Shown here in pieces: positions 1-10,048 of a stretch of DNA of 24,000 nucleotides. Made by a program: the position numbers and the translations under genes. The notes beneath the pieces are model-generated. The model saw nothing but the letters and a program-made list of their open reading frames with translations, had not been told where the DNA came from and did no database searches. How positions within the stretch are numbered: position 1 is the stretch's first letter; the number at the start of each line of letters is the position of its first letter. The stretch is from Castellaniella defragrans. Its GTDB lineage: Bacteria > Pseudomonadota > Gammaproteobacteria > Burkholderiales > Burkholderiaceae_B. The DNA lies in the NCBI RefSeq assembly GCF_014203015.1, contig NZ_JACHIB010000004.1:131454-155453 (forward strand), given 5' to 3'.

Positions 1-282
1 ACAGAGCAGTCCGCAGGGACTGCTCTTTTACAGCTGCCGCATCCCCCCCACCTCCCGGCCTGCAGGCCGGTCGGATTCGTCAGGCACAGAGCAGTCCGCA
101 GGGACTGCCCTTTTACAGCTGTCGCATCCCTCCACCTCCCGGCCTGCAGGCCGGTCGGATTCGTCAGGCACAGAGCAGTCCGCAGGGACTGCTCTTTTAC
201 AGCTGTCGCATCCCTCCACCTCCCGGCCTGCAGGCCGGTCGGATTCGTCAGGCACAGAGCAGTCCGCAGGGACTGCTCTGTG
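1..282. repeat. Tandem 84/85-bp repeat array (3 full units + partial), each unit holding two palindromes; truncated by the window edge
   Basis: Head-to-tail units at 1-85, 86-169 and 170-253, plus a partial unit at 254-282, nearly identical. Each unit has a hairpin AGAGCAGTCC-GCAG-GGACTGCTCT (10-bp stem; unit 2 has one mismatch) running into TTTT. This is followed by a C-rich tract (CATCCCTCCACCTCCC; unit 1 has CATCCCCCCCACCTCCC) and a perfect 16-bp palindrome CCGGCCTGCAGGCCGG. The last partial copy has a 13-bp stem (253-265 / 270-282) and sits 8 nt from the stop of the minus-strand gene at 290. Confidence 0.9.
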
Positions 283-2891: not shown

Positions 2892-3239
2892 ATGGATTCT
2901 CCGATGTATCCCCACCCCACTCCCGAACTGGCCCGGCGGCGCGCCGAACTCGCGCCCGAGGCCCTGTCCGCGTTCAAGGCCTTCAGCAAGGCCGTGTTCG
3001 CCCCCGGCGCGCTGGACGCGAAGACCAAGCAGCTGATCGCCGTGGCCGTGGCGCACGTCACCCAGTGCCCCTATTGCATCAAGGGCCACACCGAAGGCGC
3101 GTCCCGCGCGGGCGCGTCCGGCGCGGAAATCATGGAAGCCATCTGGGTGGCGGCCGAGATGCGGGCGGGCGGCGCCTACGCCCATTCCGCCCTGGCCCTG
3201 CAGACCCTGGACGAACTGGCCGAACGCAAGAAGGCCTGA
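2892..3239 (+). CDS. Carboxymuconolactone decarboxylase (AhpD-like) family protein with CxxC motif
   Basis: 115 aa from the ATG at 2892, with AGGAG 8 nt upstream. Contains AVAHVTQCPYCIKGHT and EAIWVAAEMRAGGAYAH, typical of the AhpD/CMD core domain. Confidence 0.8.
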   Translation: MDSPMYPHPTPELARRRAELAPEALSAFKAFSKAVFAPGALDAKTKQLIAVAVAHVTQCPYCIKGHTEGASRAGASGAEIMEAIWVAAEMRAGGAYAHSALALQTLDELAERKKA

Positions 3240-3249
3240 TGCGCGGCGT

Positions 3250-3279
3250 GAAACGTTTCCCGGCCTGGCCTCATCCAAT
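3250..3279 (+). promoter_or_regulatory. ECF-type promoter candidate (site A): tGAAAC-N17-CATCCAAT upstream of the sigma gene
   Basis: GAAAC at 3250-3254, 17-nt spacer, CATCCAAT at 3272-3279. It ends 27 nt before the GTG start at 3307. Specified bases are identical to the sites at 3593-3622 and 5153-5124. Confidence 0.6.
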
Positions 3280-3306
3280 CGCCACGGTATTCTTTCAGGA
3301 GTTCAC

Positions 3307-4011
3307 GTGGACATCCAGCTCCAGCACGATCCTGCGGCCACGGACGACCTCGCGCTGATCGGGCGCGCGGCGGACGGCGACCTGGCGGCCTTCGAGGCCT
3401 TGATGCGCCGCCACAACCAGCAGCTCTACCGGGCGGCGCGCAGCATCCTGCGCGATGAATCCGAGGCCGAGGACGCCGTCCAGGAGGCCTGGTGGAAGGC
3501 CTACGGCCACCTGCGGGACTTCCGTTCGGAAGCCCGGCCCGCCACCTGGCTGACGCGCATCGCCATCAACGAGGCCCTGATGCGGCGGCGGCGAAACAAA
3601 ACGCGCGAGGCGCTCATCCAATCCGCATACCAGTCTCCGCACGAACACGACCCCATGCCGACGTACGCTCCCGACACCGAGGCCCCCGCCTCCGCCGGCC
3701 CCGACCAGATGGCCTGGCGCGCCGAACTGCGGCGCCGCCTGGAGCGGCGCATCGACGAGCTGCCCGACCTCTACCGCACCGTCTTCGTGCTGCGCGCCGT
3801 GGACGACATGCCGGCCGCCGAGGTCGCGCTCGTCCTGGGGCTGCCCGAAGCCACCGTGCGCGTGCGCTTCATGCGCGCCCGCCGCCTGCTGCAGGCGGCC
3901 CTGCAGCCGGACTTCGACCCGCGCGCGGCGGGCGCCTTCTCGTTCGCGGGCCAGCGCTGCGACCGCATCGTGGCCGGCGTCCTCGCGCGGGTGCGGGCCG
4001 CGGGCGGCTGA
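3307..4011 (+). CDS. ECF (sigma-70 family) RNA polymerase sigma factor with long inter-domain linker and short C-terminal tail
   Basis: GTG start at 3307 with AGGAG 5 nt upstream. Region 2 (AEDAVQEAWWKAYGHLRDFRSEARPATWLTRIAINEAL) and region 4 (LPDLYRTVFVLRAVDDMPAAEVALVLGLPEATVRVRFMRARRLL) are recognisable. About 35 residues follow region 4 (...FSFAGQRCDRIVAGVLARVRAAGG). Confidence 0.9.
   Translation: MDIQLQHDPAATDDLALIGRAADGDLAAFEALMRRHNQQLYRAARSILRDESEAEDAVQEAWWKAYGHLRDFRSEARPATWLTRIAINEALMRRRRNKTREALIQSAYQSPHEHDPMPTYAPDTEAPASAGPDQMAWRAELRRRLERRIDELPDLYRTVFVLRAVDDMPAAEVALVLGLPEATVRVRFMRARRLLQAALQPDFDPRAAGAFSFAGQRCDRIVAGVLARVRAAGG
3593..3622 (+). promoter_or_regulatory. Intragenic copy (site C) of GAAAC-N17-CATCCAAT inside the sigma-factor coding sequence
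   Basis: GAAAC at 3593-3597, 17-nt spacer, CATCCAAT at 3615-3622, within the codons for RRNKTREALIQS in the linker between regions 2 and 4. The next in-frame ATG is at 3655. Confidence 0.45.
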
Positions 4012-4107
4012 AGGAAGCATCGCCCTCCGGGCACGGCCGCCGGGGCACGGCCAATCAGGTGGCGGGCACGATCGGGACTTCGCCAACGACGTCCCCGCAC
4101 CCCGCGG

Positions 4108-4647
4108 TCAATCGATCCGGCCCTGCTTCAGGATGGCCGCCACGGCGGGAAAGCCCGCCGCGGCGGCCGGGGGCAGCCGCGCGTCCGTATCGGCATAGGG
4201 CGGCGCGGCATCCGCGTCCCCCACCACGATCCGGCCGACCATCCCCGCATGCTCGTGCGGCAGGCAGAAATAGTCGTAGACGCCGGGCGCCTCGAACACC
4301 ACGGTGTAGGACTGCCCCGGCAGCAGATAGTCCGAATTCCACGGCTTCGCGCCCGCCGGCATGCGCAGCGGCCTGCCGTTGGCGGGATGATAGGCCGTCG
4401 AGGTATGGACGTTGCCGGCGTCGCGGTTGACCCAGCGGACGGCCTGGCCCGGCCGGATCAGCAGCCCCCGGGGACGGAACCAGACCTGCGAGCCGCTCGG
4501 CGTGCCCGACATGCCGATCTCGACCGCCTCGTCGGCTCCCGCCGGCCGCGGCAGGACCGCCGCCAGCAGCAGGCCGCCACCGGCCGCGAGCAGCAGCCGC
4601 CGGCGCGGGTCGTGCGGGAGCGCGTGGCCGTGCAGGGGCGCGTTCAT
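4108..4647 (-). CDS. Cupredoxin (plastocyanin/azurin-family type-1 copper protein) with twin-arginine signal
   Basis: 179 aa from the ATG at 4647, which overlaps the upstream gene's stop as ATGA. Tat-like HDPRRRLLLAAGGGLLLAAVLPRPAGA. Copper-ligand block YDYFCLPHEHAGMVGRIVV (C-x2-H-x4-M), with an upstream His in NVHTSTAYH. Confidence 0.8.
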   Translation of the reverse strand: MNAPLHGHALPHDPRRRLLLAAGGGLLLAAVLPRPAGADEAVEIGMSGTPSGSQVWFRPRGLLIRPGQAVRWVNRDAGNVHTSTAYHPANGRPLRMPAGAKPWNSDYLLPGQSYTVVFEAPGVYDYFCLPHEHAGMVGRIVVGDADAAPPYADTDARLPPAAAAGFPAVAAILKQGRID

Positions 4648-5078
4648 TTCGCCACGCGGCTTTCCTGCGCCGCCGGCACGTTCCACAGCACGATGTGGAT
4701 GTGCGGCTCTTCCACGCCGGGATGCCCCGCGTTGTACATGATGTCCACGTGATCCACCTTCGCGCCGGCCGGCACCTTCAGGTCGTTCAGGTGCATGTCG
4801 GGCTTCATCAGCGCCAGCGGGATCATGTAGGTGGTGTTCACCAGGCGGCCGTCATGGTCGTAGCCCAGGAAGGGCCCGGCCGGCAGCGTGGCGGGATCGA
4901 CGAACAGCTGCCCCAGTCCGGGAATGAAGTCGGGCAGCTTCACCAGCGAACTGACCGCCTTGTAGGGGGCGGCCGGCGGCGCCTTGAGCGCCGATGCGCC
5001 GGCCGCCTGGGCCGCGGGCGCGCCCAGGCCGAGCGCCAGGGCGGCCGCGGCCGCCGTCAGGAAGGAACGTGAGGACAT
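4644..5078 (-). CDS. Secreted hypothetical protein (Sec signal peptide, His-rich C-terminal motif)
   Basis: 144 aa; GGGAGA lies 5 nt before the ATG at 5078. Signal peptide MSSRSFLTAAAAALALGLGAPAAQA/AG. C-terminal HVDIMYNAGHPGVEEPHIHIVLW. Translationally coupled to the cupredoxin gene. I cannot assign a family with confidence. Confidence 0.7.
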   Translation of the reverse strand: MSSRSFLTAAAAALALGLGAPAAQAAGASALKAPPAAPYKAVSSLVKLPDFIPGLGQLFVDPATLPAGPFLGYDHDGRLVNTTYMIPLALMKPDMHLNDLKVPAGAKVDHVDIMYNAGHPGVEEPHIHIVLWNVPAAQESRVAK

Positions 5079-5123
5079 GAGAATCTCCCGGTATGCGCGG
5101 CGGGAATCGCCGTGTTTCGCGCC

Positions 5124-5153
5124 ATTGGATGCGCGGTCCGGAAGATCCGTTTC
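5124..5153 (-). promoter_or_regulatory. ECF-type promoter candidate (site B): GAAAC-N17-CATCCAAT upstream of the secreted-protein/cupredoxin operon
   Basis: On the minus strand, GAAAC is at 5153-5149, followed by a 17-nt spacer and CATCCAAT at 5131-5124. It ends 45 nt before the ATG at 5078. Confidence 0.6.

Positions 5154-9956: not shown

Positions 9957-10048
<92 letters not shown>

What the first reader, a model, noticed from the sequence alone, without database searches (positions are those of the whole stretch)
3250..5153. Three base-perfect copies of GAAAC-N17-CATCCAAT link an orphan ECF sigma factor to itself and to a secreted-protein/cupredoxin operon
The 30-nt pattern occurs at three places. 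Site A (3250-3279, +) ends 27 nt before the sigma gene's GTG. Site C (3593-3622, +) lies inside the sigma gene. Site B (5153-5124, -) ends 45 nt before the ATG of the 5078-4108 operon. All 13 specified bases and the 17-nt spacing are identical, while the spacers differ. (T)GAAAC followed by a 16-17 nt spacer is a classical ECF -35 arrangement. CATCCAAT is not one of the textbook ECF -10 boxes (CGTC/CGTA/TCTGA types). For an AT-leaning 13-base pattern in DNA this GC-rich, my rough estimate of chance occurrences in this window (both strands) is about 1e-4, so three copies are not accidental. The simplest reading is an autoregulated ECF sigma with a very local regulon: a Sec-exported His-rich protein plus a Tat-exported type-1 copper protein. 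It would use a promoter specificity I do not recognise.
Basis: partly seen in the sequence, partly recalled or inferred. Interest (0 to 1): 0.78.

Follow-up and report, generated by a model that had tools for sequence, protein, structure and literature searches.

The report
ECF29 sigma factor with intragenic promoter
The three repeated motifs are promoters for a known but never-characterised type of alternative sigma factor (group ECF29) that appears to switch on itself and a neighbouring copper-protein operon; the part that seems new is that one promoter copy lies inside the sigma factor's own gene and has been kept there by selection on silent codon positions.

Summary
GAAAC-N17-CATCCAAT occurs exactly three times (3250-3279 +, 3593-3622 +, 5124-5153 -), and no match was found in 100 shuffles.

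The sigma factor (3307-4011, Castellaniella defragrans) belongs to group ECF29: sigma2 and sigma4 domains, a ~30-aa C-terminal extension with the RCD motif, and no anti-sigma. The ECF29 consensus is -35 GGGAAC / -10 GCATCCAA. It has been reported upstream of Sinorhizobium meliloti rpoE8 and of the neighbouring gene pair that includes the blue-copper protein AmcY.

Two things appear to be new.

1. This Castellaniella-centred subclade uses GAAAC instead of GGAAC at -35. The switch matches two substitutions in the sigma4 recognition helix (V186/M189) in 8 of 8 loci, against 41 of 41 loci for the other type.

2. The intragenic copy (site C, codons R96-S106) is conserved as DNA in 10 of 12 orthologous genes. 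It uses the rare Gln codon CAA in 11 of 12 genes, against a 21% background. Its Arg codon third base follows the local -35 type.

So site C is almost certainly recognised by the sigma factor itself. What it does is unknown. Candidates are a truncated transcript, transcriptional interference, or antisense transcription into the convergent operon.

Verdict: new variant of a known kind, moderate interest.

The parts
3250..3279 (+). Site A: ECF29-type promoter of the sigma gene (-35 tGAAAC, 17 nt, -10 CATCCAAT). The predicted start is about 7-10 nt downstream, and the leader carries an AGGAG Shine-Dalgarno at 3297-3301.
   Evidence: Exact match. The same element lies 53-61 nt upstream of the sigma start in L081, L082, L086, L087, L169 and L170. 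In S. meliloti, rpoE8 has a mapped transcription start behind the equivalent motif (PMC6180224).
3307..4011 (+). ECF sigma factor of group ECF29, 234 aa. It has sigma2 (res. 32-98), a disordered linker (109-129), sigma4 (143-196) and a C-terminal helix (215-231) carrying FSFAGQRCDR with the nearly invariant Cys218 (>=90% of 75 homologues).
   Evidence: Pfam PF04542 + PF08281. NCBIfam NF008888 scores 260.6 bits against a cut-off of 204; S. meliloti RpoE8 passes the same model with 323 bits. RCD motif and conservation. AlphaFold2 model, mean pLDDT 79.9. 99-100% identical to C. defragrans proteins.
3593..3622 (+). Site C: a complete cognate promoter motif inside the sigma gene. CGA AAC (R96 N97) supplies the -35 and C ATC CAA T (L103 third base, I104, Q105, S106 first base) supplies the -10. 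It lies at the C-terminal end of the long sigma2 helix.
   Evidence: Exact match. The motif is kept in 10 of 12 orthologous genes. Q105 is CAA in 11 of 12, against a 21% background. R96 has the least expected codon mix of 99 conserved columns. The third base of R96 follows the local -35 type. Relatives at ~50% identity vary these residues and mostly use CAG.
5124..5153 (-). Site B: ECF29-type promoter of the two-gene operon (-35 cGAAAC, 17 nt, -10 GCATCCAAT), 45 nt upstream of the ATG at 5078.
   Evidence: Exact match. The same element lies upstream of the orthologous TTHB210-like gene in L081, L082, L085, L086, L168, L169 and L171.
4644..5078 (-). First operon gene: a secreted 144-aa protein with a TTHB210-like domain and an N-terminal signal peptide.
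   Evidence: Pfam PF18197, E 3.3e-9. Orthologues sit in the same position in six related loci and, without the cupredoxin, also in L086.
4108..4647 (-). Second operon gene: a cupredoxin (type-1 copper protein) with a twin-arginine signal (PRRRLLL) and a C-x2-H-x4-M copper site. Its start overlaps the upstream stop codon (ATGA).
   Evidence: Pfam PF00127, E 5.9e-12. Sequence reading. A cupredoxin also accompanies ECF29 in S. meliloti (AmcY).
5095..5120 (-). Possible stem-loop at the 5' end of the operon leader (GCG..CGGCG ATTCC CGCCG CGC).
   Evidence: A hairpin is predicted at the same place in each of 8 orthologous leaders. RNAalifold gives a 6-bp consensus stem in which 2 pairs change on both sides, and two leaders fold in a different register. 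The evidence is weak.
2892..3239 (+). Upstream neighbour: a CMD/AhpD-family protein with a CxxC motif. It is context only and has no motif in front of it. Site A lies in the 67-nt gap after its stop codon.
   Evidence: Pfam PF02627 and TIGR00778. It keeps this position in L081 and L082 only.

Best explanation
The locus is an ECF29-type sigma factor module with no anti-sigma factor. The sigma factor (3307-4011) recognises -35 GAAAC / 17 nt / -10 CATCCAAT.

When active, it transcribes two units. One is its own gene, from site A (positive autoregulation). The other is the convergent two-gene operon, from site B; this operon encodes a secreted TTHB210-like protein and a Tat-exported cupredoxin.

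The same holoenzyme also recognises site C, a complete promoter written into codons 96-106 of the sigma gene and maintained by selection on synonymous positions. Site C therefore gives sigma-dependent initiation or binding inside the gene. Its most likely effect is to modulate how much full-length sigma mRNA is made, or to send a 5'-truncated transcript towards the convergent operon.

Shown here: the sites, their conservation, the family membership, the co-variation of the sigma4 helix with the -35, and the codon-level selection on site C.

Inferred: that the sites fire in vivo, the outcome at site C, and the activating signal. The signal probably acts through the C-terminal helix with nearly invariant Cys218, and the cupredoxin target suggests copper or redox.
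For: - Motif statistics: three exact matches, none in 100 shuffles.
- Family: Pfam sigma2 + sigma4. NF008888 is passed by both this protein and S. meliloti RpoE8. The RCD motif sits in a ~30-aa extension, which is how Casas-Pastor et al. describe ECF29 (PMC7826278).
- Published promoter: GGGAAC/GCATCCAA with a mapped transcription start at rpoE8 and a second copy before SMb20593-amcY (PMC6180224). Both copies were re-found in the pSymB sequence.
- Conservation of the motif across fetched loci: 73 hits. By reading the start of each downstream ORF (not by individual Pfam scans), about 25 lie upstream of sigma genes, about 18 upstream of DUF4142-like genes, and 8 upstream of TTHB210-like genes; others precede cupredoxin, FolE-like and Rieske-type genes.
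- Sigma4 helix versus -35: VRVRxMRAR goes with GAAAC in 8/8 loci; T/S186 with F/H/L/M189 goes with GGAAC in 41/41 loci.
- Site C is kept in 10/12 orthologous genes at a fixed 17-nt spacing.
- Site C codons: Q105 is CAA in 11/12, against 26 CAA: 97 CAG elsewhere in the same genes (binomial P about 3e-7). R96 is CGA/AGA where the intergenic promoters are GAAAC, and CGG/AGG where they are GGAAC, in 9/9 loci that have both kinds of site.
- Synonymous sites are otherwise near saturation between lineages: 0.48 same-codon observed against 0.42 expected.
- Relatives at about 50% identity vary residues 97, 104 and 105 freely, so the protein does not need them.
Against: - There is no transcription data for this organism.
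- In S. meliloti, 126-fold overexpression of RpoE8 induced no target, not even SMb20593. The promoter assignment therefore still rests on one mapped start plus comparative data.
- The GAAAC/GGAAC switch probably happened once, so the perfect co-variation counts as roughly one evolutionary event.
- The DNA evidence for site C comes from 12 genes (about 11 independent lineages).
- Five of the 12 loci have no recognisable autoregulatory promoter directly upstream of sigma, so autoregulation is not universal in the clade.
- No Shine-Dalgarno sequence or conserved start codon can be tied to site C.
Confidence: 0.8

Rival explanations
1. Site C is an accident. The protein needs R96, N97, I104 and Q105, and the codons happen to spell the promoter. 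Only sites A and B are functional.
For: N97 and I104 are nearly invariant (>=90%) among 75 close homologues, and the region continues the sigma2 helix. 94 of 120 homologues carry RN[KR]x5IQ.
Against: The codon choice is far from background. CAA occurs in 11/12 genes against 21% elsewhere. R96 avoids CGC (50% of Arg codons) in 11/12 genes and uses the rare AGA/AGG. The third base of R96 follows the -35 type used by the intergenic promoters of the same genome. Relatives at ~50% identity replace these residues (V, P, D, K, S...), and where IQ persists three of four use CAG. The one gene that uses CAG (L170) is also the one that lost I104.
Confidence: 0.08
2. Site C is a true promoter whose product is an N-terminally truncated protein: the sigma4 domain plus the C-terminal extension, starting at Met117 (ATG 3655). 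This fragment would feed back on the full-length sigma factor, for example by competing for -35 elements or for the activating signal.
For: An in-frame ATG lies 32 nt after the -10 in most GAAAC-type genes and 26-38 nt after it in the GGAAC-type genes. 89 of 94 homologues with the site have a Met within 20 residues after IQ. From my own knowledge, unchecked: internal promoters that yield shorter isoforms were described for M. tuberculosis sigE.
Against: There is no consistent Shine-Dalgarno sequence before that ATG. The Met is also kept in homologues whose protein sequence shows the site is lost (the 'IE' subclade, L083, L170). It is therefore more likely a protein-level feature of the linker.
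Confidence: 0.15
3. Site C works at the level of transcription. One option is that holoenzyme bound there obstructs polymerases coming from site A, which would cap the positive feedback loop. The other is that it launches a transcript that runs past the sigma stop codon and is antisense to the convergent operon.
For: The gene immediately downstream of sigma is convergent in 10 of 12 loci, with gaps of 2-96 nt. No terminator-like site or unusually stable structure lies in 4012-4107. Four loci keep site C although they lack an upstream sigma promoter.
Against: In L168 the cupredoxin operon lies upstream and in the same orientation. In L084 and L087 there is no such operon at all, yet site C is intact, so antisense control of the cupredoxin operon cannot be the general role. 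Nothing here measures interference.
Confidence: 0.3
4. The motifs are operators for a different DNA-binding regulator, not promoters read by this sigma factor.
For: There is no direct binding or transcription data for this organism. RpoE8 overexpression induced nothing in S. meliloti.
Against: The motif has the two-block geometry and the distance to start codons expected of ECF promoters. A mapped transcription start lies behind it in S. meliloti. The -35 block changes together with the sigma4 recognition helix of the adjacent sigma factor. No other regulator is conserved across the loci.
Confidence: 0.04

Closest known systems
ECF29 sigma factors, represented by Sinorhizobium meliloti RpoE8 (SMb20592) with SMb20593-amcY
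   Same: Both pass the same NCBIfam model, NF008888, and are 41.6% identical over residues 9-219. Both have the C-terminal FxFxGxRC[DE] motif and no anti-sigma factor. Both have an identical -10 (CATCCAA) upstream of the sigma gene and of an adjacent operon that ends in a cupredoxin.
   Different: The -35 is GAAAC instead of GGGAAC, with V186/M189 in the sigma4 helix. The cupredoxin's partner is a TTHB210-like protein instead of a DUF4142 protein. The operon is convergent with sigma rather than downstream of it. There is a third, intragenic promoter copy, which rpoE8 lacks.
CorE/CorE2 of Myxococcus xanthus (ECF44, now ECF238), copper- or cadmium/zinc-sensing sigma factors with a C-terminal Cys-rich domain
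   Same: [quoted passage not shown]
   Different: [quoted passage not shown] This protein has a single Cys (C218) and no CxC. It also falls in a different group and has a different promoter.
ECF41 (SigJ-type) sigma factors
   Same: Both lack an anti-sigma factor and are regulated through a C-terminal extension. A CMD/AhpD-type CxxC gene is the neighbour in both.
   Different: ECF41 has a SnoaL-like extension (120-150 aa in the related groups) and a TGTCACA..CGTC-type promoter that drives the CMD gene. Here the extension is ~30 aa, the promoter is different, and the CMD gene has no motif.
Cognate internal promoters in sigma operons or genes: the sigB operon PB of Bacillus subtilis, and the sigE P2/P3 promoters of M. 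tuberculosis (from my own knowledge, not checked here)
   Same: In each case a sigma-dependent promoter lies downstream of the primary promoter of the sigma transcription unit.
   Different: Those promoters still yield a functional sigma factor. Site C lies after the whole sigma2 domain, so any product would lack promoter-melting and core-binding functions. A full-text search found no description of such a case.

Membership tests
ECF29 (Staron 2009 / Casas-Pastor 2021) | ECF architecture: sigma2 and sigma4 domains only | tested here: met
   PF04542 (res. 32-98) and PF08281 (143-195), with nothing else. Foldseek returns only ECF sigma factors.
ECF29 (Staron 2009 / Casas-Pastor 2021) | Short (~30 aa) C-terminal extension with a conserved RCE/D motif | tested here: met
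   FSFAGQRCDR at residues 211-220. R217 is invariant and C218 nearly invariant (>=90%) in 75 homologues. A confident helix spans 215-231. The definition is quoted from PMC7826278.
ECF29 (Staron 2009 / Casas-Pastor 2021) | No anti-sigma factor encoded nearby | tested here: met
   The neighbours are CMD, TTHB210-like, cupredoxin, RHH_4, EamA and DUF924, and none gives an anti-sigma domain hit. No conserved extra gene appears across 12 loci. A novel anti-sigma cannot be excluded by sequence alone.
ECF29 (Staron 2009 / Casas-Pastor 2021) | Group promoter, -10 element GCATCCAA | tested here: met
   CATCCAAT is present at all three sites, and site B has the full GCATCCAAT. The consensus comes from PMC6180224, citing Rhodius 2013.
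ECF29 (Staron 2009 / Casas-Pastor 2021) | Group promoter, -35 element GGGAAC | tested here: not met
   All three sites have (T/C)GAAAC. This is a subclade-specific variant that co-varies with V186/M189 in sigma4: 8/8 loci against 41/41 for the GGAAC type. It is a change of specificity within the group, not grounds for exclusion.
ECF29 (Staron 2009 / Casas-Pastor 2021) | Sequence assignment by the ECF Hub / ECFfinder group HMM | not testable with these tools
   The proxy used is NCBIfam equivalog NF008888. The window protein scores 260.6 bits and RpoE8 (assigned to ECF29 by ECFfinder in PMC6180224) scores 323 bits, against a cut-off of 204.
ECF29 (Staron 2009 / Casas-Pastor 2021) | Genomic association with a blue-copper protein, as described for rhizobial rpoE8 | tested here: met
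   A cupredoxin lies in the motif-driven operon here and in L081, L082, L085, L168, L169 and L171. AmcY plays this role in S. meliloti. Lang et al. thought the trio uncommon outside nodulating bacteria; these data extend it to Betaproteobacteria.
CorE-like (ECF44/ECF238) | Cys-rich C-terminal domain plus a CxC motif in the sigma2-sigma4 linker | tested here: not met
   The whole protein has a single Cys (C218), and the linker 109-140 has none. The definition comes from PMC8999054.
ECF41 | SnoaL-like C-terminal extension (~100 aa or more) | tested here: not met
   The extension is ~30 aa, gives no SnoaL hit and is modelled as one helix.

The most novel reading that the evidence does not exclude
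An orphan ECF sigma factor carries a full copy of its own promoter inside its coding sequence. The copy has been kept for a long evolutionary time by selection on silent sites, and it was re-tuned (CGG->CGA) when the sigma factor's -35 specificity changed. This intragenic promoter would be a built-in feedback device: a truncated sigma4 product, a roadblock, or an antisense transcript. It would stand in for the missing anti-sigma factor in controlling a self-activating sigma factor.
Probability: 0.35. Interest if true: 0.7.

Novelty: new variant of a known kind. Interest (0 to 1): 0.5.

Why it matters
According to the 2021 ECF reclassification and the papers found here, ECF29 is a widespread group of sigma factors of which no member has been characterised. 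In the one attempt found (S. meliloti RpoE8), overexpression induced no targets.

This locus offers three concrete handles.

- A natural pair of specificities (GAAAC with V186/M189 against GGAAC with T/S186 and F/H189) can be swapped to prove direct recognition, and it adds an orthogonal -35 code for synthetic biology.
- The copper-protein target operon is conserved between Alpha- and Betaproteobacteria, which points to the physiological signal.
- An intragenic cognate promoter can be tested with silent mutations alone. It may show how a self-activating sigma factor without an anti-sigma factor avoids runaway expression.

If site C turns out to be inert, the finding reduces to a routine new member of ECF29.

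Tried and rejected
- **Dispersed repeat:** rejected. The spacers differ, and the window holds no further copies even at 3 mismatches.
- **Sigma70-type promoters or intrinsic terminators near the sites:** the scan found no promoter-like site. The only terminator-like hit (4629-4642, +) is no more than the shuffles give and lies outside the convergent gap. The gap 4000-4115 is not unusually structured (z = 0.49).
- **Rfam:** only a tRNA in the window.
- **CorE-like or ECF41 membership:** rejected on their defining features (see the membership test).
- **Met117 as an internal start codon:** weakened. There is no consistent Shine-Dalgarno sequence, and the Met persists where the site is lost.
- **Site C as a general ECF29 feature:** rejected. 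S. meliloti rpoE8 and all relatives at 50% identity or less lack it.
- **AlphaFold2 model and Foldseek:** these gave the secondary-structure context only.
- **Leader hairpin of the operon:** only weak covariation.
- **Literature:** no paper on TTHB210 is in the library. No ECF29 text appears in the body of Rhodius 2013, whose figures are not held. The supplements of Casas-Pastor 2021 are not held.
- **One look-up failed:** P0056 is not on record.
- **The genome and metagenome scans hit their row limits.** They returned only relatives at 53% identity or less, so close-clade DNA had to come from 11 successful exact-protein look-ups.
Full report
**Observation**

The pattern GAAAC-N17-CATCCAAT occurs exactly three times in the window: 3250-3279 (+), 3593-3622 (+) and 5124-5153 (-). 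None of 100 dinucleotide-preserving shuffles gave a match. Relaxing the pattern to 3 mismatches or to a 14-20 nt spacer adds nothing relevant. The spacers differ, so these are three independent instances of a bipartite motif and not copies of a repeat.

Site A ends 27 nt before the GTG at 3307, with an AGGAG at 3297-3301. Site B ends 45 nt before the ATG at 5078. Site C lies in the sigma gene.

**What the genes are**

- The window comes from Castellaniella defragrans; the sigma protein is 99-100% identical to NCBI entries of that species.
- ORF 3307-4011 has sigma2 and sigma4 domains only. It passes the NCBIfam equivalog NF008888/PRK11922 over its full length (260.6 bits, cut-off 204).
- Its last ~30 residues contain FSFAGQRCDR. 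R217 is invariant and C218 nearly invariant among 75 homologues.
- The operon on the minus strand encodes a signal-peptide protein with a TTHB210-like domain (4644-5078). It also encodes a cupredoxin (4108-4647) with a twin-arginine signal and a C-x2-H-x4-M copper site. The two genes overlap by ATGA.
- The upstream neighbour is a CMD/AhpD CxxC protein.
- No neighbour resembles an anti-sigma factor.

**Comparison with what is known**

Casas-Pastor et al. [quoted passage not shown]

Lang et al. 2018 classified S. meliloti RpoE8 as ECF29. They noted that its gene sits next to SMb20593 and the blue-copper protein AmcY. They mapped a transcription start behind '-35 GGGAAC / -10 GCATCCAA', the cross-species ECF29 consensus of Rhodius et al. 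2013. They also saw a second perfect copy before SMb20593, yet 126-fold overexpression of RpoE8 induced no gene (PMC6180224).

I retrieved that locus from pSymB and confirmed the following:

- Both published promoter sequences are present.
- RpoE8 ends in FPFAGKRCER.
- RpoE8 passes NF008888 with 323 bits.
- SMb20593 is a DUF4142 protein and AmcY is a cupredoxin.
- The window protein is 41.6% identical to RpoE8.

The sigma/secreted-protein/cupredoxin arrangement is also a known association, here extended from rhizobia to Betaproteobacteria.

**Comparative support for sites A and B**

I searched 172 fetched loci (genome scan, metagenome scan and exact-protein look-ups) for RAAC-N16/17-CATCCAA. 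This gave 73 hits.

I sorted the hits by reading the start of each downstream ORF; apart from SMb20593 they were not scanned individually against Pfam.

| Downstream gene | Approximate number of hits |
|---|---|
| Sigma gene itself | about 25 |
| Proteins sharing the PTDPQIAxI.YTAG start of the DUF4142 protein SMb20593 | about 18 |
| TTHB210-like genes of the Alcaligenaceae-centred clade | 8 |
| Cupredoxin, FolE-like, Rieske-type and unknown genes | remainder |

In the 12 close-clade loci, the operon promoter is present in 8. A promoter 53-61 nt upstream of sigma is present in 7. Five loci have no recognisable promoter directly upstream of sigma.

**A change of -35 specificity**

Distant ECF29 loci all use GGGAAC (or NGGAAC). 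The Castellaniella-centred subclade uses (T/C/A)GAAAC.

Mapping the sigma4 recognition helix onto each locus gives a perfect partition. EATVR-V-Rx-M-RAR (V186, M189) goes with GAAAC in 8 of 8 loci. T/S at 186 with F/H/L/M at 189 goes with GGAAC in 41 of 41 loci.

E. coli sigmaE has VRSRIFRAR at the equivalent helix and reads GGAAC. The two changed positions appear to correspond to base-contacting residues of the sigmaE region 4 / -35 structure (PDB 2H27 appears among the Foldseek hits). The residue-level contacts are from my own knowledge and were not tested.

The switch probably happened once, so it is one evolutionary event. It is nevertheless the kind of protein-DNA co-variation expected if this sigma factor reads these sites.

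**Site C**

In the coding sequence the motif is spelled by CGA AAC (R96 N97), then 17 nt, then C ATC CAA T (third base of codon 103, I104, Q105, first base of S106).

Presence of the motif in the 12 orthologous genes with DNA in hand:

- It is intact in 10 genes. Eight of these match perfectly and two have CATCCAAC.
- It is degenerate in L083 (CGC AAC .. ATT CAA).
- It is lost in L170 (CTT CAG).

Codon use at site C:

- **Q105:** CAA in 11 of 12 genes, the exception being L170. Elsewhere in the same 12 genes Gln is 26 CAA to 97 CAG (21% CAA). In the window gene, Q105 is the only CAA among 11 Gln codons (binomial P about 3e-7).
- **R96:** CGA ×7, AGA ×1, CGG ×2, AGG ×1, CGC ×1, although CGC makes up 50% of Arg codons. 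R96 is the least expected of 99 conserved columns.
- **Third base of R96:** A in every locus whose intergenic promoters are GAAAC and G in every locus whose promoters are GGAAC. This holds in 9 of 9 loci that have both kinds of site.

Between lineages, synonymous sites are otherwise close to saturation. Same-codon frequency is 0.48 observed against 0.42 expected from codon usage; only window and L081 are close relatives.

Relatives at about 50% identity have other residues at 97, 104 and 105. Where IQ persists, three of four use CAG. The protein therefore tolerates change here, and the invariance inside the clade is best explained by constraint on the DNA.

The element exists in both -35 subclades, so it predates the specificity switch and was re-tuned with it. 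I conclude that site C is recognised by the sigma factor holoenzyme.

By protein signature, 94 of the 120 best homologues are compatible with the site. At least one subclade (IE instead of IQ) has lost it. It is absent from rpoE8 and from all distant ECF29 genes.

**What site C does is not resolved**

The AlphaFold2 model (mean pLDDT 79.9) places codons 93-108 at the end of a long helix (78-108). A disordered linker (109-129) follows, then sigma4, then a confident C-terminal helix at 215-231. A transcript starting at about 3630 would encode at most sigma4 plus the extension.

An in-frame ATG (Met117, 3655) lies 32 nt after the -10 and is conserved. However, it has no consistent Shine-Dalgarno sequence and is retained where the site is lost. 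The truncated-protein idea therefore remains weak.

The gene downstream of sigma is convergent in 10 of 12 loci, with gaps of 2-96 nt and no terminator-like signal in the window. Read-through antisense transcription is possible. But the convergent partner is not always the cupredoxin operon.

A roadblock or interference role that limits the positive feedback loop is equally possible. Four loci keep site C while lacking an upstream sigma promoter. This argues that site C has a role of its own.

A full-text search found no description of a cognate promoter inside an ECF sigma coding sequence.

**How the system most likely works**

- Shown: family membership, the three sites, their conservation, the sigma4/-35 co-variation, and the selection on site C.
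- Inferred: the sigma factor is held inactive by its own C-terminal helix, which carries the nearly invariant Cys218. This is by analogy with other extension-regulated ECF groups (PMC8999054) and fits the inertness of overexpressed RpoE8.
- Inferred: a signal, plausibly copper or redox given the exported cupredoxin and the Cys, releases it.
- Inferred: the holoenzyme then fires at A (more sigma), B (TTHB210-like protein plus cupredoxin) and C (modulation).

**Verdict**

The module and its promoter belong to a known but uncharacterised kind (ECF29). The GAAAC specificity variant and the selected intragenic promoter have no description in the literature I searched. Interest is moderate (0.5). 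It would be higher if site C proves to be a feedback device.

Noticed in passing
window 1-279: An 84-bp unit is repeated 3.3 times in tandem (97% matches) and runs off the window start. Each unit holds two perfect hairpins (AGAGCAGTCC-GCAG-GGACTGCTCT and the palindrome CCGGCCTGCAGGCCGG). It looks like an intergenic REP/BIME-like array next to the DUF924 gene.
   Followed up: no
window 5095-5120 (-), and the equivalent leaders in L081, L082, L085, L086, L168, L169, L171: The 5' leader of the TTHB210-like/cupredoxin operon folds into a GC-rich hairpin starting about 10 nt after the -10 in all 8 orthologues. The stem sequences differ, and the loops are often ATTC(C). The consensus stem has 6 bp, only 2 pairs change on both sides, and two leaders fold in another register. 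It could be a 5' stabiliser or an operator.
   Followed up: partly
L084 and L168 (both from assembly GCA_964020585.1, labelled C. defragrans by the source): Two further ECF29 paralogues (61-67% identical) carry the same V186/M189 helix and an intact intragenic site. L168 has its own TTHB210-like/cupredoxin operon upstream in the same orientation. L084 lies near a multicopper-oxidase/cytochrome c fusion and a DUF2231 gene. Paralogues that share one promoter code suggest cross-talk.
   Followed up: partly
L024 2239 (+) and 2222 (-); L032 2259; L036 1010; L037 835 (-): In alphaproteobacterial and other ECF29 loci the same promoter motif precedes GTP-cyclohydrolase-I-like (FolE-like) genes and Rieske/FAD-oxidoreductase-like genes. 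These were judged by eye from the N-terminal sequences only, not scanned against Pfam.
   Followed up: no
window 4012-4107; L171 4310-4313; L083 4205-4213: The sigma gene and its downstream neighbour are convergent in 10 of 12 loci. The gaps are very short (2-96 nt) and no terminator-like signal was found in the window.
   Followed up: partly
window codon K98 (3598-3600) and orthologues: The Lys codon right after the intragenic -35 is AAA in 10 of 10 genes that have Lys there (AGA in the two with Arg), against a 55% AAA background. The constraint may therefore extend beyond the five -35 bases.
   Followed up: no
window 9958-10048 (-): A tRNA-Ser (anticodon CGA) is the only Rfam or ARAGORN hit in the window.
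   Followed up: no
L083 2562-2590 (+): In Candidimonas the only perfect motif precedes a 216-aa secreted protein with no Pfam family, which lies just upstream of sigma. The intragenic site is degenerate there, and no cupredoxin operon is nearby.
   Followed up: no
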